IMG/VR virus record: IMGVR_UViG_2939127364_000001
DNA: 64,000 nt
Reading direction: 5' to 3' (one strand)
DNA from: a virus
Taxonomy: Duplodnaviria; Heunggongvirae; Uroviricota; Caudoviricetes
Shown in pieces: positions 19,801 through 45,469 of this stretch. A model generated the notes under the pieces. That model was not told where the DNA came from. It searched no databases and worked only from the letters and a program-made list of their open reading frames with translations. The first letter of the stretch is position 1. Each line of letters starts with the position of its first letter. A program made the translations under genes and the position numbers.

Positions 19801-20324
19801 AAGTTGTCTTTCCCGCCCGCTGTAATCAGTGAGCTTATGATTTTTGCAAAATCGTTGCGTTGGAACACGCTACCGATGTCGGAAGTGAGCAGGATGATGT
19901 TGCCTTTGGCATATGTAGAAACCAACTGTTCGAGCGAGAGACGCGGTACAAAGTAGAACTGTTCTCGTGTGTTGGCCACCGTCATTAGTTCGCAGATGTC
20001 GCGATATCCTTGCTCATTTTTAATTAGAGCGGTAAACGAGTAGTTACGTCCCCGCTCTAATGATTCCATACATCTCATAGATTCTTTAGCAAGTTTAGCC
20101 CGGTGCTCGTATGTGGGATCATCAACGATATTTAGTTTCACACCACAAATAACCGCCATGTCGTCACCAGCGGCACGTTGTAGTGGAATAACACTCGCAA
20201 TATTCATGCTATCTGCTGAAATTACAGCGGTGTAGCCAGCTTCTCTGGCAATCTTCACCGCGTTTTCTGCTTTTAGAGCCGACTCCCCAAGTGAGAAGTC
20301 AGTTCGAACCATCAGTGCTTTCAT
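16818..20324 (-). CDS. dnaE: DNA polymerase III alpha-type (DnaE family) replicative polymerase
   Basis: 1168 aa; N-terminal PHP-like region; [48 protein letters not shown] matches the conserved DnaE palm motif. Confidence 0.85.
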   Translation of the reverse strand: [1168 protein letters not shown]

Positions 20325-24506: not shown

Positions 24507-24893
24507 ATGTCTGATAACAAGATTGAATTTATAGAAAGTCGCTACGCTGCTTTTATCGCAGGGTTGATTGAATCCTCACCTATGAGCCAGGCCCAGATAG
24601 CCAAAACAATTGGGTATAAAAACGCCAACAACCTTTCTTTAATTAAAAGCGGCAAAATTCCTTTGCCTATCGATAAGGTTCGTCCGCTGGCGCTGGCACT
24701 GGGTATTGAGCCAAGTCGTCTTATGATGATGGTGCTGGAAGAACGCCAACCCGAACTCGCAGCATTTTTATACAAAGAAGGCACTGCTCCTCTTAACGAG
24801 GACGAAAAACAGGTTCTTGCTGCATATAACGAGCGATTCGGTAAAGAGAAAGGCGCATCACAAAAGGTTGTTGAGGCCATAAAGTCTCTATGA
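24507..24893 (+). CDS. HTH (XRE/Cro-CI-like) transcriptional regulator
   Basis: 128 aa; helix-turn-helix segment SQAQIAKTIGYKNANNLSLIKSG. Confidence 0.6.
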   Translation: MSDNKIEFIESRYAAFIAGLIESSPMSQAQIAKTIGYKNANNLSLIKSGKIPLPIDKVRPLALALGIEPSRLMMMVLEERQPELAAFLYKEGTAPLNEDEKQVLAAYNERFGKEKGASQKVVEAIKSL

Positions 24894-25991
24894 AAAATTT
24901 ACACGAATAAGCTCTGTTGATAGACGATCTCCCTTGAATTTGTGGTCAATTTCGTCTAAATCCGGTTGCTCTACGATTGATGCGATGTACGTCGAGAAAC
25001 TTTCTAAGGCGTCTCGCATCTCGTCCATATAATCGTGCCGGTCGTAGACCCGATCTATCCCCTCAAGACTGTGGTTCATGATTTTGCGTGATACCTCCTG
25101 GCTTATGCCTAATGCTGGGAAGTAACTACGCGCAGTACGGCGCAAATCTCGGGGTGTAAATGGCTCAAGCTCCATCAGTTCTGGTCGTTCCAGAATACGA
25201 CGTAATGCCTGGGCTATTGCCACTTTAGACATAGGAAGGTCTTTCCCGATTTTTTTATTCGAAGGCACGAGCCACTGGCTGTCTTTACCATATTCGAACA
25301 ACTCTTCAATACAAGTGCGCATTAATGAGCTTAAAGGCAGAGAATGCTCACGGGCAGATTTGTTCCTCTTGCCTTGATTCCAAACCCCACGCTTAAGATT
25401 GAACTCACTTTTTTTAGCCCGCAGTACTTCGTCAGGTCGTCTTGCGGATACAAGACATAGCCTGGCCGCCCATTTTGTACCAGCACACACATTGAAGTAG
25501 TCCCATATATTCCAGAACACCCATACCTCTGCGTCGGTCAGCTTCCGCTCGCGAGGTGTGGGCTTTGCGCCACCGGCAACTTTGTTAAGTGACATATCGT
25601 TTAACGGTGACACGTCTATCATCCCCTGGAAGGCGCACCAGCTAAGGAACTGCTTCATCAGAGAGAAAACGCGGCGGCCCATAACAATTTTGCCATCCAG
25701 TATTAGTGGGTTGACCAGTTGGTTCACCATGAACCTATTAATGTCACTTACTTTTACATCGGCAATGTGCGGCAAAACATGTATCAAAATACAATGAACA
25801 GCGATCTCTGGCCGACGTCTGGTTATCAGCAGAGATAAGCGAGTGAATAACATGAATGCGTCCGAGAATCTCATGTCATTGCTGACCTGGGAGATCATAA
25901 CGGCCTGCATTTGAGATGCTCTTTCGAGATACTCTATCGCCTCTTTTGAGGTGTTCTCCGCAGCGCGTGCTCTGTCAAAGCTATTTTTCAT
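24888..25991 (-). CDS. Tyrosine recombinase (integrase/resolvase family)
   Basis: 367 aa; C-terminal catalytic-like region PRDLRRTARSYF...KIMNHS...RVYDRHDY. Confidence 0.6.
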   Translation of the reverse strand: MKNSFDRARAAENTSKEAIEYLERASQMQAVMISQVSNDMRFSDAFMLFTRLSLLITRRRPEIAVHCILIHVLPHIADVKVSDINRFMVNQLVNPLILDGKIVMGRRVFSLMKQFLSWCAFQGMIDVSPLNDMSLNKVAGGAKPTPRERKLTDAEVWVFWNIWDYFNVCAGTKWAARLCLVSARRPDEVLRAKKSEFNLKRGVWNQGKRNKSAREHSLPLSSLMRTCIEELFEYGKDSQWLVPSNKKIGKDLPMSKVAIAQALRRILERPELMELEPFTPRDLRRTARSYFPALGISQEVSRKIMNHSLEGIDRVYDRHDYMDEMRDALESFSTYIASIVEQPDLDEIDHKFKGDRLSTELIRVNFS

Positions 25992-26088: not shown

Positions 26089-26123
26089 TAATGATTCCAT
26101 ACATAGTAGGTATGGAATCATTA
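26089..26123. other. loxP-like site: perfect 14-bp inverted repeats around a 7-bp spacer (TAATGATTCCATAC-ATAGTAG-GTATGGAATCATTA)
   Basis: Perfect palindrome ~100 bp upstream of the tyrosine recombinase start; architecture matches tyrosine-recombinase core sites. Confidence 0.5.
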
Positions 26124-26201: not shown

Positions 26202-26447
26202 TCAGAGGGTGCTGACGTATGCAGCCAGTTCTGTGTATCCGCCAATCGGTTGGCCATCGATCAGCACTTGGGGGATAGTCTCTACCGGTTTACCAACAAT
26301 TTCACTTAGTTTTTCCTTGTCGATACCGGCAGTGGTGATGTCGATGTACTCATAATCACCGTAGCCATGTCCCTTTAGTTGCTTCGCCAGCTCGACCGCA
26401 CGTTTGCAGTATGAGCAGTTATCTCGTCCGTAGATAGTGATCGTCAT
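26202..26447 (-). CDS. Glutaredoxin (GrxA/NrdH-like)
   Basis: 81 aa; CSYC active site; GKPVETIPQVLIDGQPIGGYTEL closely resembles E. coli glutaredoxin 1. Confidence 0.8.
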   Translation of the reverse strand: MTITIYGRDNCSYCKRAVELAKQLKGHGYGDYEYIDITTAGIDKEKLSEIVGKPVETIPQVLIDGQPIGGYTELAAYVSTL

Positions 26448-26794
26448 TGCTTTGCCTCATGCCACTTTTGCTTCAGGAGATAGCCTTCCAGGGGCCAGAT
26501 TTGATCGATAGCATCTTTTCGAGCGTACTCGCGACCAACATCAAAATTGAAGATTTCTGGTCTTACGCACGCAGATTTTCCCGTTACGGTATATCCATTT
26601 TTGAGAACCATAACGCAGAACGTTAAGAGTTTTAACGACTCATGACCTTTGTCGATATCTGTTTTTGAATTGTAAACAGAGATGAAGTTATCCCCGTGGC
26701 TGGCATCATATGCAGTGAAATAATGTTCACTTTGAATGAGTTGTTCAATGTGTTCAGGGGTGACTTTTAGTGGTGTGTTCTCTTTGCTGGTCAT
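26444..26794 (-). CDS. Hypothetical protein
   Basis: 116 aa ORF coupled to glutaredoxin gene. Confidence 0.4.
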   Translation of the reverse strand: MTSKENTPLKVTPEHIEQLIQSEHYFTAYDASHGDNFISVYNSKTDIDKGHESLKLLTFCVMVLKNGYTVTGKSACVRPEIFNFDVGREYARKDAIDQIWPLEGYLLKQKWHEAKQ

Positions 26795-26837
26795 TATTTC
26801 TTCCTACAAAGTTCGTAGACTTGACTCTTTCAGTTGC

Positions 26838-26866
26838 AAAAAAGGGGCCGAAGCCCCTTTGAATTT
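26838..26866. terminator. Bidirectional rho-independent terminator
   Basis: GGGGCCGAAGCCCC hairpin flanked by A-run upstream and T-run downstream. Confidence 0.7.
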
Positions 26867-26935
26867 TGCGCTGAAAAAAAGTGTTGCTAGGATGTTAGCA
26901 AGCTATGGTTAAGAACGTCTGCCGTAATTGTCTAT

Positions 26936-27013
26936 CACAGCGTTGAGCGGTCTGGTTTATGTTAGCGGAGTCTTAATCTGGGTGATTAAAAGGCCAAACC
27001 GCTCAACGCTGTG
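26936..27013. repeat. Hairpin element E0 (16-bp perfect arms CACAGCGTTGAGCGGT / ACCGCTCAACGCTGTG, 46-nt loop) abutting tRNA-Ser 3' end
   Basis: Arms at 26936-26951 and 26998-27013. Confidence 0.6.
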
Positions 27014-27015
27014 TC

Positions 27016-27102
27016 TGGCGGAGAGTAATGGAATCGAACCATCATCGTTTGCACAATGGGACGGATTTCAAGACCGCTTGAGCACCATGCTCCCTACTCT
27101 CC
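27016..27102 (-). tRNA. tRNA-Ser (anticodon UGA), type II with long variable arm
   Basis: Minus strand GGAGAGTAGGGAGCATGGTGCTCAAGCGGTCTTGAAATCCGT...GGTTCGATTCCATTACTCTCCGCCA; anticodon loop CTTGAAA; one mismatch in anticodon stem. Confidence 0.6.
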
Positions 27103-27202
27103 AGCTATTGTGATGGTCGGTGCTGAACTCCGACACAGGGTTGTAGCAAGCCCCGCAAAGCGCGCACTACTGTAGTTGCGGCACATCAGCCTGTGCATTC
27201 AT

Positions 27203-27281
27203 CACAACGGTAAGATCACTACCTTTCGACCAGTCATTGTGCACATGAACGACGATTAACCGTAATGATCTTATCGTTGTG
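27203..27281. repeat. Hairpin element E1 (15-bp arms CACAACGGTAAGATC / GATCTTATCGTTGTG, one mismatch)
   Basis: Arms at 27203-27217 and 27267-27281. Confidence 0.55.
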
Positions 27282-27332
27282 TTGTGAAGCCAGATGCTTA
27301 TCTTCTGGTTGCTTCAAAGAGCTGCACTTCCT

Positions 27333-27421
27333 CACAACGGTAAGAGCACTGGTCTGACTCTATCGATTTACGGGCTTGTGGGTCAGTATCGCCGATTCGC
27401 CCAATGCTCTTACCTGTTGTG
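27333..27421. repeat. Hairpin element E2 (arms CACAACGGTAAGAGC / GCTCTTACCTGTTGTG) abutting tRNA-Thr 3' end
   Basis: Arms at 27333-27347 and 27406-27421; paralogous to E1. Confidence 0.55.
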
Positions 27422-27422
27422 T

Positions 27423-27498
27423 TGGTGCCGGTTAACGGGATCGAACCGCTGACATCCTGCTTACAAGGCAGGCGCTCTACCAACTGAGCTAAACCGGC
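27423..27498 (-). tRNA. tRNA-Thr (anticodon UGU)
   Basis: Minus strand GCCGGTTTAGCTCAGTTGGTAGAGCGCCTGCCTTGTAAGCAGGATGTCAGCGGTTCGATCCCGTTAACCGGCACCA; canonical cloverleaf, encoded CCA. Confidence 0.8.
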
Positions 27499-27502
27499 AA
27501 TT

Positions 27503-27589
27503 TGGTGGGGAGTGATGGAGTCGAACCACCCGAGTCGCAATGACAGTAGATTTACAGTCTACCCCGCTGCCCCTACGGACTAACTCCCC
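27503..27589 (-). tRNA. tRNA-Tyr (anticodon GUA), type II
   Basis: Minus strand GGGGAGTTAGTCC...GGGTAGACTGTAAATCTACTG...GGTTCGACTCCATCACTCCCCACCA; anticodon loop CTGTAAA. Confidence 0.65.
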
Positions 27590-27594
27590 TAAAT

Positions 27595-27669
27595 TGGCGA
27601 TGGTGGGTGGATTCGAACCACCGACCAGTTGGTTAACAGCCAACTGCTCTACCGCTGAGCTACACCATC
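27595..27669 (-). tRNA. tRNA-Asn (anticodon GUU)
   Basis: Minus strand GATGGTGTAGCTCAGCGGTAGAGCAGTTGGCTGTTAACCAACTGGTCGGTGGTTCGAATCCACCCACCATCGCCA. Confidence 0.75.
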
Positions 27670-27935
27670 AATTCAGCACTGCCAGTATTTATTACTCAAC
27701 AGTGCCAATCGCGACGGTTTAGTTTCTGCCAGGAAACGCACCGCTACTTGCACTTTTCGTTAGTGCCAGACGCTTTCGACTTCGCTCAATAGTAGAAGGC
27801 AAAATCTTTAAGTAGATGATGTTTCTGAGGACAGCACCTACTTTGTAATTTATACAATGTGATGTATGGAATCATTTGTTGTGAAAACAGGCACCAATGG
27901 CAACAGTGGTTAAACCTACACAACAATCCTGTCTT

Positions 27936-28057
27936 CACAACGTTGAGGCCACTACTCCGATTGAATGTTTGCCCAACATGTTACATATCAACGCTCGCCG
28001 GTATCTCTGTGAATAGAACCTTAGAATTGATAAAAATGTAATGGCCTCAACGTTGTG
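27936..28057. repeat. Hairpin element E3 (16-bp perfect arms CACAACGTTGAGGCCA / TGGCCTCAACGTTGTG, ~90-nt loop)
   Basis: Arms at 27936-27951 and 28042-28057. Confidence 0.55.
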
Positions 28058-28218
28058 TGCTGGCTAACCATACCAGCCGGGCTACGTCGCCGCTTTTTAA
28101 CCCAGTATAAACGACATAATTGAACAAAATGACGTAACAGGACGGGCGGTCAGTGGCTAAGAATCCGGGAGTCATATGGAGTTGAAAATATACCAACCGC
28201 CCATTCTGTTACTTCATC

Positions 28219-28242
28219 GGAGGGAACATGAATGTTCCCTCC
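28219..28242. promoter_or_regulatory. Perfect 24-bp palindrome GGAGGGAACATGAATGTTCCCTCC in gene-poor AT-rich region
   Basis: 11-bp arms with 2-bp centre; no convincing ORF in 27670-28447. Confidence 0.4.
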
Positions 28243-43800: not shown

Positions 43801-45469
43801 CACCAATCAGGCTTATGTAAACCACGGAACTGGCTTGTGGCATGGTTACAGTTGCCAGCTTGAACCATCCGGCACCACCACTAAAAGACATTGTTATTGA
43901 ATTTAAAGTACCAATATCTTTCGGCGTTAATGTGATATCCGCAGTCAGTGCTTTACCGTTAACTTTTCGGTTAGATGGTACCCTGCCATTCGCATTGTCA
44001 TTGGCTGCTTTAACTGCCTTCGGTGTCGCGGCAAGCGTTTCAGATGTGCTGTTGGTTGCACTACTGAGCTGGACTATCCCCTTTTTCGTCGTGCTCGCAT
44101 CCTCAAGCGCCACGGCGGATGCAATATCCTCTGCCCGTTTTGCCGCTGTCTCAGCGCGCGTTGCTGCGGATTCTGCCGTACTTTTGCTCTGTGCTGCCGC
44201 CGTCGCACTGCCAGCAGCCTCTGTTGCCTTCGTGGATGCCGTCGTGGCGCTGCCCTTCGCTGCTGACGCCTGTCTGGTCGCCTCATCTTTTGAAGCAGAC
44301 GCAGATGATGCCGATGACGCTGCCGAACTGGCGGACGATGCCGCTGCCGTTTTTGAGGATTCTGCACGGGTTTCCGACGCTTTCGCGTTCGTTTCGGATG
44401 TCTTCGCTGCGGAAGCTGACCTCGCTGCTGCGCTGGCCTGTTCAGTGGCTTGGCCAGCCTTCGTTGTGGCTGTTGAAGCAGACGATGCGGCACTTTCTGC
44501 CGATTTTCCGGCGGCGGTGGCACTGGCTGAGGCCTGCCCGGCACTTGTTGACGCGGCACTGGCAGACGACGCAGCCGCTGTTTTTGAGCCTGCCGCAGCC
44601 GAGGCGCTCTGTCCCGCTGCCGTTTCAGAAGACCTGGCGTTCGTCTCGGACGTTTTTGCCGCCTTCGCGGAATTTCCTGCCGCCGTTGCCGAGGAAGCGG
44701 CATTACTGGCGCTCGAGGCTGCGCTCGTTTCTGATGATTTCGCTGCCTCTTTTGAGGCCGCCGCATCCCGGGCTGAGGTGGCAGCTTCTGACGCCTTCGT
44801 GGTCGCGGTGGATGCAGAAGTGGCTGCAGATTTTTGTGACGCTGCAGCATTCGTTTCAGATTTTTTCGCAGCAGTTGCACTCGCACTTGCGGCACTTTGT
44901 GAGGATGCCGCAGCGGATGCACTTTGAGACGCTTGAGAGGCTTTTTCTCCAGCAGTATTGGCGCTTTCTGCTGCTGCGGCAGCACTGGCCGCCGCCTCAC
45001 GAGCTTTGTCGCCAGCAGCATCAATCGCGTCAGTGTTATTTTTATACCACTCAACGTTTTCGTTGTGCTCGTTGACGATCTGCATTAGCGGCTTAACGGT
45101 CACTTCTGTACCGTCTTCACGCTCGATTGTCACCTCATCCAGCGCAGTCAACCAACTGCGTATGGACTTGGAATCAGCCGACATACGCGACATTAGCGCA
45201 GTAAAGCGCGCGCTAAACTGTGTTAAGTCGCCTTCATAGGTCGTAATGATTCGGCACGGAACCTCAGACTGAGTTTCGCCGGTATAAGGTTCTGAGAGAA
45301 CAATATTCGTATCGCTTATTACGCGCTTGATCTCGTACAGCTTATTGTCGGGGCCAATGACGATCATCCCCGGCAACACACCATTAGCTGTTACGTTCCA
45401 GGCTGTCCCTGCCCCAACCAGAGTATTGCTACCCTGTGTAAATGTGATAGTACCTTCCCTGTACCACAT
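40823..45469 (-). CDS. Long side tail fiber protein
   Basis: 1548 aa; Ala/Ser/Thr-rich low-complexity region, tandem tail-fibre repeats (ATATKLQTARTIGGVSFDG), C-terminal SDRRSKRNI segment resembling S74 intramolecular chaperone domain. Confidence 0.85.
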   Translation of the reverse strand: MWYREGTITFTQGSNTLVGAGTAWNVTANGVLPGMIVIGPDNKLYEIKRVISDTNIVLSEPYTGETQSEVPCRIITTYEGDLTQFSARFTALMSRMSADSKSIRSWLTALDEVTIEREDGTEVTVKPLMQIVNEHNENVEWYKNNTDAIDAAGDKAREAAASAAAAAESANTAGEKASQASQSASAAASSQSAASASATAAKKSETNAAASQKSAATSASTATTKASEAATSARDAAASKEAAKSSETSAASSASNAASSATAAGNSAKAAKTSETNARSSETAAGQSASAAAGSKTAAASSASAASTSAGQASASATAAGKSAESAASSASTATTKAGQATEQASAAARSASAAKTSETNAKASETRAESSKTAAASSASSAASSASSASASKDEATRQASAAKGSATTASTKATEAAGSATAAAQSKSTAESAATRAETAAKRAEDIASAVALEDASTTKKGIVQLSSATNSTSETLAATPKAVKAANDNANGRVPSNRKVNGKALTADITLTPKDIGTLNSITMSFSGGAGWFKLATVTMPQASSVVYISLIGGAGFNVGSPHQAGISELVLRAGNGNPKGITGALWKRTAVGLTNFAWINTSGDTYDIYVEIGNYATRVNIHWDCTANATVSIYTSPTYSASKPSSVTDGVVYTMYSTHQKPTPLDIGALPTTGGTVSGPLSVTGGITGTLNGNASTATKLQTARSIGGVGFDGSANINLPGVNTTGNQNTTGNAATATKLQTARTIGGVSFDGTANINLPGVNTTGNQNTTGNAATATKLQTARTINGIAFDGTRNISLGPADIGCPASPTGWLTTGSNGGAITTAQLVTLLQNNGAFTTRSWIARCAWAYANSATIPNSETGCGVIPLAGAVIEVFNNGSSSNNYTIRITTATTTSVSGALTNAEFIYVFNGTDYSPGWRRVYNTKNKPTASDVGALPLTGGTLSGGLTSSGEIISKYANGFRIAYGSFGFFIRNDGSNTYFMLTASGDTLGSWNGLRPITINNTSGAVSIGNGLNVTGGINGSLNGNASTATKLQTARNINGVKFDGSGDININTLVSRGPVTALSGSTQGTAGIQMYEAYNNSYPTTYGNVLHMKGASAAGEGELLIGWSGTNGAHAPVYVRSRRDTSTANWSGWAQVYTTAHKPTAADVGALPISGGTMTGVLTLQNVSQPLKTQGGGILANDGNLYINKSGFAGWIDALFMKNSGGTMSGQLKIRSTDGLRIYDAAYGMIFRRSENNFYLIPTAKDQGENGDIGSLRPFYVNLTNGRVAMGNGAVVDGGLGLGVVNGLGGNSIVLGDSDTGLKQNGDGILDVYANNTQVLRFTSGSVQSNKPVNVTGDIKTNSWVYANRFSINSNSGSWISMRDQNVIFGLNQVSTSSAQALLRQDHADRKFFVGGLGNSQFGFYMINNSRTDNGTDANAYLQNDGTWVCGGNGSFNDVYIRSDRRSKRNIRKIERALDKLEQIEGVLYEIQVCGRYEQSGGLIAQDVQNVQPELVTVDHNDQSGEPRLRLNYNGVIGMLVEAVKELREEVRELKAKM

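What the first reader, a model, noticed from the sequence alone, without database searches (positions are those of the whole stretch)
26936..28057. Family of long hairpin elements with conserved CACAACG...CGTTGTG termini interleaved with the tRNA genes
Four elements (E0 26936-27013, E1 27203-27281, E2 27333-27421, E3 27936-28057) each have 15-16-bp near-perfect terminal inverted repeats enclosing 46-90 nt. Two of them start within 2 nt of the 3' ends of tRNA-Ser and tRNA-Thr, so they would be co-transcribed with the tRNAs. They do not look like tRNAs or intrinsic terminators, and I cannot assign them to any known element class. Candidates are precursor-processing structures, a small stable RNA family or miniature mobile elements.
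Basis: seen in the sequence. Interest (0 to 1): 0.65.

Follow-up and report, generated by a model that had tools for sequence, protein, structure and literature searches.

The report
Phage tRNA-linked long RNA hairpin family
The four hairpins are real members of a widespread but unannotated family of about 20-base-pair RNA stem-loops, also present in phages lambda and P1, that sit directly after phage tRNA genes and most likely act as cutting sites that free the tRNAs and small RNA "cargo" from one long precursor.

Summary
E0, E1, E2 and E3 lie at the stated coordinates with 19-23 bp stems, and a diverged fifth member (E4) lies at 28129-28217. All are on the tRNA (minus) strand, inside a 1.65-kb non-coding island.

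Selection acts on the RNA of that strand. Non-Watson-Crick stem pairs are G·U far more often than A·C, and 15 of 20 stem pairs covary.

The family is widespread in phages of Enterobacterales: P1, D6, SSU5-like phage-plasmids, lambdoid late leaders (lambda 44787-44862, just after tR'), Nonanavirus and Phapecoctavirus. Rfam and RefSeq do not annotate it.

- The helix stays about 20 bp while the interior is swapped freely. One stem carries at least 12 unrelated interiors, and one interior occurs in four stems.
- 131 copies start within 2 nt of a tRNA 3' end.

Best model (confidence 0.5, inferred): RNase III-type processing stems that cut after the last tRNA of a run and release small-RNA cargo. 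A 1988 paper reports RNase III sites in the lambda late transcript, but I could not read their coordinates.

A mobile element, an integron attC site, a terminator, a tRNA and a Y RNA are not supported. I rate it a new variant of a known kind, of moderate interest.

The parts
28402..28430 (-). Promoter-like site (TTTACT-17-TAAAAT) at the upstream edge of the non-coding island
   Evidence: Consensus scan only. It lies just after ORF 28448-28738. Function not shown.
28129..28217 (-). E4, a diverged fifth hairpin (GUAACAGAAUGGGCGGU...ACCGCCCGUCCUGUUAC)
   Evidence: 22-nt arms, 86% complementary. Fold -36.1 kcal/mol, z = -5.06. P1 and D6 carry intermediate forms at the equivalent position.
27936..28057 (-). 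E3 hairpin: 20-bp closing stem with an 82-nt interior
   Evidence: (-47.8 kcal/mol, z = -6.1). The identical element occurs in 27 fetched loci.
27878..27941 (-). Alternative helix: the 3' end of E3, GUUGUGAAGACAGG, pairs with the downstream CCUGUUUUCACAAC
   Evidence: Inverted repeat I11, 14 nt, 93% complementary. It is present in the fold of 27670-27935.
27862..27875 (.). One of five copies of the 14-mer ATGTATGGAATCAT, a possible repressor operator, lying between E3 and tRNA-Asn
   Evidence: 5 matches in the window against 0.5 expected; 0 of 100 shuffles reach 5. The role is inferred.
27595..27669 (-). tRNA-Asn (GUU)
   Evidence: ARAGORN; Rfam tRNA model, 75.5 bits.
27503..27589 (-). tRNA-Tyr (GUA)
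   Evidence: ARAGORN; Rfam, 39.7 bits.
27423..27498 (-). tRNA-Thr (UGU), the last tRNA of the Asn-Tyr-Thr run
   Evidence: ARAGORN; Rfam, 73.1 bits.
27333..27421 (-). E2 hairpin: CACAAC-A-GGUAAGAGCAUUGG...CCAGUGCUCUUACCGUUGUG, with a bulged A on the 5' arm; it starts 1 nt after the CCA of tRNA-Thr
   Evidence: (-37.3 kcal/mol, z = -5.4).
27281..27338 (-). Spacer module closed by GUUGUGAGG/CUUCACAAC, holding a boxA-like GCUCUUUGAAG and the hairpin CCAGAAGAUAAGCAUCUGG
   Evidence: Fold. The module is conserved in P1, D6, SJ46, Sashavirus and upstream of the N-like gene of P22-like phages.
27203..27281 (-). E1 hairpin, whose interior is a conserved structured RNA with a palindromic apical loop (GUGCAC)
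   Evidence: (-32.7 kcal/mol, z = -4.5).
27107..27208 (-). Cloverleaf-like, tRNA-like module closed by GUUGUGAUG/CAUCACAAU, overlapping the last 6 nt of E1
   Evidence: Fold shows a four-way junction, but z is only -0.8. The arm GCAC/GUGC covaries with GCGC/GCGC and ACGC/GCGU in related loci (sequences). Low confidence.
27016..27102 (-). tRNA-Ser (UGA)
   Evidence: ARAGORN. Below Rfam's gathering score as tRNA-Sec-like, 41.1 bits.
26936..27013 (-). E0 hairpin: CACAGCGUUGAGCGGUUUGG...CCAGACCGCUCAACGCUGUG; it starts 2 nt after the CCA of tRNA-Ser
   Evidence: (-41.2 kcal/mol, z = -9.3).
26838..26862 (-). Intrinsic-terminator-like hairpin (GGGGCUUCGGCCCC followed by UUUUUU) ending the island, ahead of ORF 26444-26794
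   Evidence: Read directly from the sequence. It is the stretch matched by the terminator part of an Rfam sRNA model. The simple terminator scan did not list it.

Best explanation
The elements are RNA structures on the tRNA-sense transcript. Each is a closing helix of about 20 bp, roughly two turns of double-stranded RNA, around an exchangeable interior.

They belong to one polycistronic non-coding precursor. On the minus strand it reads: promoter-like site, E4, E3, tRNA-Asn, tRNA-Tyr, tRNA-Thr, E2, spacer module, E1, tRNA-like module, tRNA-Ser, E0, terminator.

Proposed mechanism (inferred, not shown). Within a tRNA run, RNase P cutting at the next tRNA leaves a 4-5 nt trailer on the tRNA before it. 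After the last tRNA of a run there is no such cut. The hairpin that starts 1-2 nt after the CCA supplies one. Host RNase III cleaves the 20-bp helix and leaves a short single-stranded trailer, which exonucleases trim back to CCA. The same cut releases the interior as a small hairpin RNA with a shortened stem. It also frees the 3' GUUGUG stub to pair with a downstream CACAAY, closing the next module.

In lambdoid phages the same hairpin sits just after the tR' terminator and would separate the leader from the late message.

Some interiors have functions of their own. The E1 interior is conserved across unrelated phages and carries a self-complementary loop.
For: **Shown here**

1. The structure is real and selected on the sense RNA. 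In 46 unique elements oriented like the nearest tRNA there are 71 G·U pairs and 2 A·C; on the opposite strand the counts are 27 and 24. A diverse set of 32 stems has 44 G·U and 7 A·C. In that set 94.2% of cells are paired, 15 of 20 pairs change on both sides, and 0 of 500 shuffles reach the observed values. Matches found from the termini alone extend by at least 6 of 8 further pairs in 75 of 84 and 25 of 25 unique cases.
2. Helix length is held constant while content is not. The closing helix is 18-23 bp in 64 of 71 unique elements (median 20), while total length runs from 48 to 122 nt. D6 has a 48-nt version with essentially no interior. An ideal E. coli RNase III substrate is a 22-bp helix (PMC3867540).
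3. Stem and interior are separable. One stem (CACAACAGGTAAGAGCATTG...) carries at least 12 unrelated interiors. The E1 interior occurs inside four different stems.
4. Position and polarity are strict. 131 elements begin -2 to +2 nt after the 3' end of a tRNA on the same strand (Thr 54, Ser 51, Asn 26), against 1 case of the reverse order. The link with tRNA-Thr holds in Phapecoctavirus DE16, whose tRNA-Thr sequence is quite different.
5. Transcription context. The elements lie in a 1.65-kb ORF-free island inside a minus-strand gene run, with a promoter-like site upstream and a terminator-like hairpin downstream.
6. Lambda carries a member at 44787-44862, a few nt after tR'. It is the longest helix between pR' and S. 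In phage 21 the same slot holds tRNA-Asn and tRNA-Thr instead.

**From the literature**

Daniels et al. 1988 (Virology 167:568) report RNase III processing sites in the lambda late transcript in vivo. I saw the title in the reference list of PMC7547250.

**Established knowledge**

E. coli RNase III cleaves helices of about 20 bp or more. T7 early RNA and rRNA operons are matured in this way.
Against: - No cleavage data for these elements were available to me.
- I could not read the coordinates of the 1988 lambda RNase III sites. The lambda late leader has a second candidate helix, the composite tR' hairpin with a 15-bp perfect core.
- Comparison with the published proximal-box and distal-box preferences (PMC1540722) is ambiguous. 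U9-A, A10-U, A11-U, G12-C and the U18-A / U17·G step resemble the boxes, but the register is off by about one base pair. In addition, 13 of 32 stems have G-C at position 10.
- RNase III alone does not obviously explain why the outer CACAACG/CGUUGUG is so strongly conserved.
- Loci were collected with patterns that fix the termini, so the degree of terminal conservation in the wider family is partly ascertainment. The Nonanavirus PJ16 copy of E1 has a different stem sequence.
- Many of the counted copies are close relatives, so the counts are not independent events.
Confidence: 0.5

Rival explanations
1. The elements are chiefly free-standing functional small RNAs. The long stem is a stabilising scaffold, and the variable interior is the active part, for example a decoy, a sponge, a protein-binding domain or a dimerising RNA. 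Any processing would be incidental. This overlaps the best explanation and differs mainly in which part is under selection.
For: - The E1 interior is conserved across P1-like, Phapecoctavirus, Nonanavirus and lambdoid contigs, while its closing stem changes completely.
- Its apical hexamer stays palindromic through paired changes: GUGCAC, GCGCGC, GGGCCC.
- The interior of the window's E2 recurs in Klebsiella phage pJN2-26 inside a different 7-bp stem.
- The P1 copy of E2 holds a canonical T-arm, GAGGGUUCGAAUCCCUAC.
- Known precedents (from my own knowledge): T4 species 1 and 2 RNAs, rtT RNA, and the 3' external spacer of leuZ.
Against: - Versions with no interior exist (48 nt in D6).
- At the same locus in near-identical phage-plasmids the interior is replaced outright while stem and flanks stay.
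- I found no complementarity longer than 12 nt between any interior and the rest of the window, which is chance level.
- This reading does not explain the strict placement 1-2 nt after a tRNA 3' end.
Confidence: 0.25
2. The hairpins are passive structures. They keep a long untranslated transcript folded so that Rho cannot load, exonucleases stall and neighbouring tRNAs fold independently. No specific nuclease cut is involved.
For: - The whole 1.65-kb island is untranslated and densely structured.
- A boxA-like GCUCUUUGAAG lies between E2 and E1.
- The interiors vary freely.
Against: - A hairpin starting 1-2 nt after the CCA would hinder, not help, exonucleolytic 3' trimming of the tRNA unless something cuts it.
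- From established knowledge of RNase III, near-perfect 20-bp double-stranded RNA in E. coli is expected to be bound or cut.
- Passive structure does not predict a constant helix length of about 20 bp or conserved stem sequence.
Confidence: 0.15
3. The elements act at the DNA level, either as miniature inverted-repeat transposable elements or as integron attC-like recombination sites that move tRNA and non-coding RNA cassettes.
For: - They have terminal inverted repeats of 19-23 bp with variable interiors.
- Modules are gained and lost exactly at direct CACAAY repeats. Phage Cyrano has tRNA-Thr-A-CACAAT-tRNA-Ser where the window carries a 313-nt block.
- GTTGTG loosely resembles the integron core site GTTRRRY.
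- A tyrosine recombinase gene lies about 1 kb away.
Against: - No target-site duplication in 169 of 173 flank pairs, fewer than in shuffled controls.
- The orientation is fixed: the bulged A is always on the 5' arm in the tRNA-sense orientation.
- The bias of G·U over A·C is specific to one strand, which DNA-level symmetry would not give.
- All four strict-termini copies in the 64-kb window lie inside the one non-coding island.
- CACAAC and GTTGTG do not fit RYYYAAC and GTTRRRY.
- The nearby recombinase matches only generic phage-integrase models, not an integron integrase.
- The indels at 6-bp repeats can be explained by ordinary recombination between short repeats.
Confidence: 0.05

Closest known systems
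RNase III processing stem-loops in phage polycistronic transcripts (T7 early RNA sites; lambda N-leader, sib and late-leader sites)
   Same: Both are long intramolecular helices of about two turns, placed between functional units of one long phage transcript in E. coli and its relatives. Lambda carries a member in the very leader for which RNase III sites were reported.
   Different: Cleavage is not shown here. The elements form a sequence family with conserved termini and exchangeable interiors. They abut tRNA 3' ends. No such family is curated in Rfam.
RNase III processing stalks of rRNA operons, which also carry tRNAs
   Same: Both are long helices formed by sequences flanking a structured RNA, in an untranslated operon that contains tRNAs and boxA-type elements.
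   Different: Here the helix encloses only 10-90 nt rather than a whole rRNA. There are several in series, and the enclosed RNA is not conserved.
T4 species 1 and 2 stable RNAs (rnaC, rnaD) at the end of the T4 tRNA cluster
   Same: Both are small structured RNAs of unknown function encoded next to, and on the same strand as, phage tRNA genes. rnaC also contains a T-arm.
   Different: There is no sequence similarity. The T4 RNAs are not simple long-stem hairpins, and the rnaD fold is not better than shuffles (z = -0.8).
Spacer-derived RNAs of bacterial tRNA operons (3' external spacer of glyW-cysT-leuZ; rtT RNA of tyrT)
   Same: Both are functional or stable RNAs released as by-products of tRNA precursor processing (from my own knowledge).
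   Different: Those are released by RNase E from single-stranded spacers and act by base pairing. Here I found no target complementarity in the window, and the defining feature is a 20-bp helix.
Animal pri-miRNA hairpins cut by Drosha (analogy of working principle only)
   Same: A generic double-stranded stem of fixed length serves as an excision device for a variable RNA embedded in a longer transcript, often in clusters. Rfam's only weak hits to these elements are to miRNA precursor models.
   Different: Different domain of life and different enzyme subclass. The useful product here would be the interior or the flanking tRNA, not a 22-nt duplex. There is no homology.
HIV-1 dimerisation initiation site kissing loop (applies to the E1 interior only)
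   Same: An apical loop presents a 6-nt palindrome. The variants seen here, GUGCAC and GCGCGC, are the same two hexamers I recall from HIV-1 subtypes (for the E1 loops).
   Different: The setting is entirely different. Dimerisation of E1 is untested. The loop is 7 nt on a 3-4 bp stem.
STnc100 and PasD prophage small RNAs (Rfam RF02076)
   Same: P1 has a match below Rfam's threshold (33.4 bits, E = 4e-5) right after its last hairpin. That RNA starts UGGUGAAU and ends CACCGG...CACCA, like the tRNA-like modules that follow the hairpins. STnc100 is prophage-encoded (bioRxiv 10.64898/2026.05.13.724894).
   Different: This concerns the neighbouring modules, not the hairpins themselves. There is no hit in the window.

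Membership tests
E. coli RNase III substrate | Intramolecular helix of about 20-22 bp (two turns) | tested here: met
   The closing helix is 18-23 bp in 64 of 71 unique elements, median 20. The window elements have 19-23 bp. The ideal substrate is 22 bp (PMC3867540).
E. coli RNase III substrate | Proximal-box and distal-box base-pair preferences, with no antideterminant pairs | tested here: inconclusive
   Stem positions 9-12 (U-A, A-U, A-U, G-C) and 17-18 (U·G, U-A) resemble the published boxes (PMC1540722; stem counts). However, the spacing is off by about 1 bp, and 13 of 32 stems have G-C at position 10. The in vivo scoring matrix of PMC6212723 was not available.
E. coli RNase III substrate | rnc-dependent cleavage in vivo or cleavage by the purified enzyme | not testable with these tools
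   The only available evidence is the title of Daniels et al. 1988 for the lambda late transcript. The coordinates could not be read.
Miniature inverted-repeat transposable element | Terminal inverted repeats | tested here: met
   19-23 nt arms.
Miniature inverted-repeat transposable element | Target-site duplication flanking the element | tested here: not met
   169 of 173 flank pairs have none; 4 have 2 nt, below the shuffled control.
Miniature inverted-repeat transposable element | Dispersed copies in either orientation | tested here: not met
   All four copies with these termini in the 64-kb window lie within the 1.65-kb non-coding island (the diverged E4 lies there too). The bulged A is always on the 5' arm in the tRNA-sense orientation.
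Integron attC site | Core sites RYYYAAC and GTTRRRY | tested here: not met
   The termini are (T)CACAAC and GTTGTG(N), which break the consensus at two and one positions respectively (read from the sequences).
Integron attC site | An integron integrase in the element | tested here: not met
   The neighbouring recombinase (24888-25991) matches only generic phage-integrase models. Lambda, P1 and DE16 carry members of the family, and no integron integrase appears in the annotated stretches I fetched around them.
tRNA or tRNA pseudogene | Match to the tRNA covariance model or an ARAGORN call | tested here: not met
   ARAGORN calls none of the hairpins. Rfam gives no tRNA hit on them even at E up to 10. 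Some interiors do contain a T-arm-like hairpin.
Bacterial Y RNA (YrlA) | Match to the Rfam YrlA model (Ro-binding helix plus tRNA-like domain) | tested here: not met
   No hit on any hairpin. The one weak YrlA hit in P1 spans two true tRNAs. I did not search for a Ro/Rsr protein.
Intrinsic terminator | G+C-rich hairpin followed by a U-tract | tested here: not met
   No T-run follows any of the elements, and the terminator scan does not list them.
T4 rnaC / rnaD stable RNAs | Sequence or structural homology to the T4 RNAs | tested here: not met
   The T4 RNAs were fetched and folded, and show a different architecture. Only the genomic setting is alike.

The most novel reading that the evidence does not exclude
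Phages of Enterobacterales share a modular RNA cassette system. A conserved stem of about 20 bp, cut by RNase III, would be a universal excision scaffold and a functional parallel to pri-miRNA processing. It would deliver a changing library of small structured RNAs, co-transcribed with phage tRNAs. Some of these RNAs are tRNA-like, and one may dimerise through a kissing loop. The shared CACAAC/GUUGUG junctions would serve twice. In the RNA they would switch pairing partner after cleavage, so that the next module can close. In the DNA they would be the short homologies at which cassettes are exchanged between unrelated phages. The cargo RNAs would act on the host, for example as decoys for nucleases that target tRNAs.
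Probability: 0.2. Interest if true: 0.75.

Novelty: new variant of a known kind. Interest (0 to 1): 0.5.

Why it matters
- Lambda and P1 are among the best-studied phages, yet this conserved RNA element has no annotation in their records and no Rfam family. In P1 the elements lie under two opposite-strand ORFs of unknown or only putative function, upl and plp.
- A defined family would correct such annotations. It would also give a testable answer to how the last tRNA of a phage tRNA run gets its 3' end, and explain the non-coding stretch between tR' and the lysis genes of lambdoid phages.
- If the interiors prove to be functional RNAs, the family would offer an entry point to a pool of phage small RNAs that are exchanged as cassettes. 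The stem might also serve as a natural scaffold for expressing small RNAs in E. coli.
- If the hairpins are only processing sites, this is a tidy but ordinary addition to RNase III biology.

Tried and rejected
- **Rfam.** I scanned at gathering and at permissive thresholds on the window, P1 and eight other loci. Nothing matched the hairpins except chance-level miRNA-precursor hits.
- **Y RNA (YrlA).** I considered this because of the T-arm in the P1 copy. The model does not match.
- **T4 rnaC and rnaD.** Fetched and folded; not related.
- **Antisense regulation.** The longest complementarity between any interior and the rest of the window is 12 nt, which is chance level.
- **Mobile element and integron attC site.** Rejected; see the membership tests.
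- **Literature.** Searches by sequence string and by topic found no description of the family. Lobocka 2004, Daniels 1988, a lambda review and Zhang & Nicholson 1997 could not be opened.
- **Lambda GenBank records.** They carry no RNase III feature.
- **E. coli K-12 prophage DLP12.** It holds no member, so K-12 RNase III maps cannot be used for that prophage.
- **RNase III scoring matrix.** The supplement of PMC6212723 is not held.
- **Species-representative genomes.** The scan gave 31 hits. Seven are true members, six from named Enterobacterales genera and one from an unnamed MAG (L227). L244 is an unrelated perfect hairpin, and the other 23 are chance matches.
- **Covariance model.** I did not build one. 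The interiors cannot be aligned, and a stem-only model would penalise them.
Full report
**1. What is in the window**

The four tRNA genes all lie on the minus strand: Asn 27669-27595, Tyr 27589-27503, Thr 27498-27423 and Ser 27102-27016 (Rfam agrees for three of them).

The four hairpins are at the stated coordinates.
- As RNA of the tRNA strand they fold at -32.7 to -47.8 kcal/mol, with z-scores of -4.5 to -9.3.
- For E1, E2 and E3 the tRNA-strand fold is more stable than the opposite-strand fold.
- A fifth, diverged member lies at 28129-28217.
- A scan of the whole window for hairpins with these termini finds only these four.

All five sit in an ORF-free stretch, 26795-28447. It lies between minus-strand ORFs, with a promoter-like site at its upstream edge and a terminator-like hairpin at about 26862-26838. 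On the transcript, E2 begins 1 nt after the CCA of tRNA-Thr and E0 begins 2 nt after the CCA of tRNA-Ser.

**2. What the replicon is**

The window is a P1/D6-like phage-plasmid. Its closest relatives are Escherichia phages CMS-2020a and Cyrano.

P1 itself has four such hairpins in the ban operon, around tRNA-Asn and tRNA-Thr. Three of them lie under the opposite-strand ORFs annotated as upl and plp.

**3. The family is widespread**

It found 90 contigs for the symmetric type.
- Annotated phages with members include P1, P7, D6, SJ46, Klebsiella phage-plasmids such as pJN2-26, Nonanavirus PJ16 (which has no tRNAs; the hairpins sit between the capsid and neck genes) and Phapecoctavirus DE16.
- In lambdoid phages the hairpin lies just after the tR' terminator of the late operon. 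HK75 and 189 other phage records match that stretch.
- Lambda itself carries it at 44787-44862.
- In phage 21 the same slot holds tRNA-Asn and tRNA-Thr instead.
- 348 of 5426 complete E. coli genomes carry the HK75-type stretch. It is unannotated in all but 2 of the 30 rows I sampled, and those 2 list only a hypothetical protein.
- Among species-representative genomes, true members occur in Rahnella, Pantoea, Erwinia and Ewingella, all Enterobacterales, plus one unnamed MAG. The other hits do not continue as hairpins of this family and look like chance.
- Rfam has no family for them. I found no description in the literature held here.

**4. Selection acts on the RNA, on the tRNA strand**

- In elements oriented like the nearest tRNA, the non-Watson-Crick stem pairs are 71 G·U against 2 A·C. 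In the opposite orientation they are 27 against 24.
- In a hand-picked diverse set of 32 stems the counts are 44 G·U against 7 A·C, with G·U spread over ten stem positions.
- In that set 94.2% of cells are paired, 15 of 20 pairs change on both sides, and no shuffle of 500 or slid register comes close.
- Caveats: I built that alignment from the arms only, and partly from sequences already filtered for pairing. The less biased check is that pattern matches, which fix only 12-13 positions per arm, continue to pair in the next eight positions in nearly all cases.
- The bulged A of the E2 type is always on the 5' arm in the sense orientation.

**5. Stem and interior are separate modules**

- The closing helix is 18-23 bp in 64 of 71 unique elements, while total length runs from 48 to 122 nt.
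- One stem sequence carries at least 12 unrelated interiors. Some sit at the same locus in near-identical phage-plasmids.
- Conversely, the E1 interior occurs in four different stems, and the stems differ by compensatory changes.
- The E1 interior has an inner helix and a 3-bp apical stem. Its loop hexamer is GUGCAC, GCGCGC or GGGCCC, always a palindrome. This suggests loop-loop pairing between two copies, but that is untested.
- The interior of the window's E2 recurs in pJN2-26 inside a different short stem.

**6. Position and polarity**

- In the fetched loci, 131 elements begin -2 to +2 nt after the 3' end of a tRNA on the same strand. Only one tRNA begins right after an element.
- The tRNAs concerned are Thr(UGU), Ser(UGA) and Asn(GUU).
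- Within runs, the tRNAs are 4-5 nt apart, and the hairpin follows the last one.
- These loci were chosen because they contain hairpins, so the proportions are not population estimates. The polarity, however, is not an effect of that choice.

**7. The junction motif**

In the window, the 3' GUUGUG of E3, E2 and E1, plus the next few bases, is also complementary to a downstream CACAAY that closes the next module. Across the family, 55 of 91 cases extend this second helix by at least 3 pairs, against 24 of 91 in a shifted control.

At the DNA level the same motif marks the ends of indels. Cyrano reads tRNA-Thr-A-CACAAT-tRNA-Ser, where the window has a 313-nt block running from CACAAC to CACAAT.

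**8. Mechanism**

None of the mechanism is shown; all of it is inference.

- A near-perfect helix of about 20 bp in E. coli is the textbook substrate of RNase III (PMC3867540; PMC6212723).
- A cut there would give the last tRNA of a run a short trailer for exonucleases, playing the part that RNase P plays within the run.
- The same cut would release the interior as a small hairpin RNA.
- It would also free GUUGUG to close the next module.
- In lambda, a 1988 paper reports RNase III sites in the Q-dependent late transcript. I verified the title, but I could not read where the sites are. The hairpin is the longest helix in that leader, although the tR' hairpin is a second candidate.
- Comparison with the published box preferences is suggestive but ambiguous.

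**9. Rivals**

- A scaffold-plus-cargo small RNA is compatible with the best model and likely for E1. It does not explain the versions without an interior or the placement next to tRNAs.
- Purely passive structure does not explain the fixed helix length. A hairpin at the CCA would also block trimming.
- A mobile element or attC site is contradicted by the absence of flanking duplications, by the fixed orientation, by the strand-specific G·U bias, and by the lack of a matching recombinase.

**10. Verdict**

The feature is real. It is an RNA-level family that is unannotated yet present even in lambda and P1. By kind it belongs with phage RNase III processing stem-loops and with stable RNAs co-transcribed with tRNAs. 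Three properties have no description that I could find: it abuts tRNA 3' ends, its stem sequence is conserved, and its interiors are exchanged. I rate it a new variant of a known kind, with interest 0.5.

Noticed in passing
window 20060-20073, 26091-26104, 26108-26121, 27862-27875, 28874-28887: The 14-mer ATGTATGGAATCAT occurs five times (0.5 expected; 0 of 100 shuffles reach 5). Two copies form a palindrome at 26089-26123. One lies between E3 and tRNA-Asn. It looks like the operator of the phage repressor, comparable to the C1 operators of P1, one of which controls the ban promoter.
   Followed up: partly
window 27203-27281 (E1 interior); L004 1730-1809; L005 about 2501-2591; L248-L264: The apical loop of the E1 interior is a 6-nt palindrome that stays palindromic through paired changes (GUGCAC, GCGCGC, GGGCCC). 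Two of these are the hexamers I recall from the HIV-1 dimerisation loop. This points to possible loop-loop dimerisation.
   Followed up: partly
window 27281-27338; L001 about 1757-1826; L007 1501-1558: The spacer between E2 and E1 is a conserved module with a boxA-like GCUCUUUGAAG and the hairpin CCAGAAGAUAAGCAUCUGG. It is shared with P1, D6 and Sashavirus. In P22-like phages a related module sits immediately upstream of the ribosome-binding site of the N-like antiterminator gene.
   Followed up: partly
window 27107-27208; L213 1318-1458; L245 about 458-547: The hairpins are followed by cloverleaf-like modules. These start GUUGUG-RUGAA, continue with a D-arm-like hairpin, and end with a T-arm-like hairpin and YCACAAC. 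In HK75 the T-arm is canonical (GCCGGUUCGAUUCCGGC). They look like degenerate tRNAs. The CACAAC motif aligns with the CACCA 3' end of tRNA-Thr in phage 21.
   Followed up: partly
L001 (P1) 1218-1337, minus strand of the locus: There is a match below threshold to the Rfam prophage small RNA STnc100 (33.4 bits, E = 4e-5), directly downstream of P1's last hairpin and upstream of tciA.
   Followed up: no
L001 (P1) 1376-1945: The P1 ORFs upl and plp are annotated on the strand opposite to the tRNAs. They cover three of the hairpins and overlap tRNA-Thr. The covarying RNA stems suggest that these ORF calls may be spurious.
   Followed up: no
L002 (Cyrano) 1800-1830 compared with window 27103-27421: Cyrano lacks tRNA-Tyr and lacks the 313-nt block holding E2, the spacer module, E1 and the tRNA-like module. 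The block's ends fall exactly on direct CACAAY repeats.
   Followed up: yes
window 4112-4226 and 1348-1492: Two other long inverted repeats lie elsewhere in the window: 20-nt arms at 90% with 75 nt between them, and 29-nt arms at 79% with 87 nt between them. By sequence they are unrelated to this family.
   Followed up: no
window 27016-27102: ARAGORN calls tRNA-Ser(UGA). Rfam scores it only as tRNA-Sec-like, below the gathering threshold (41.1 against 47 bits). The D6 record notes the same difficulty with its copy.
   Followed up: no
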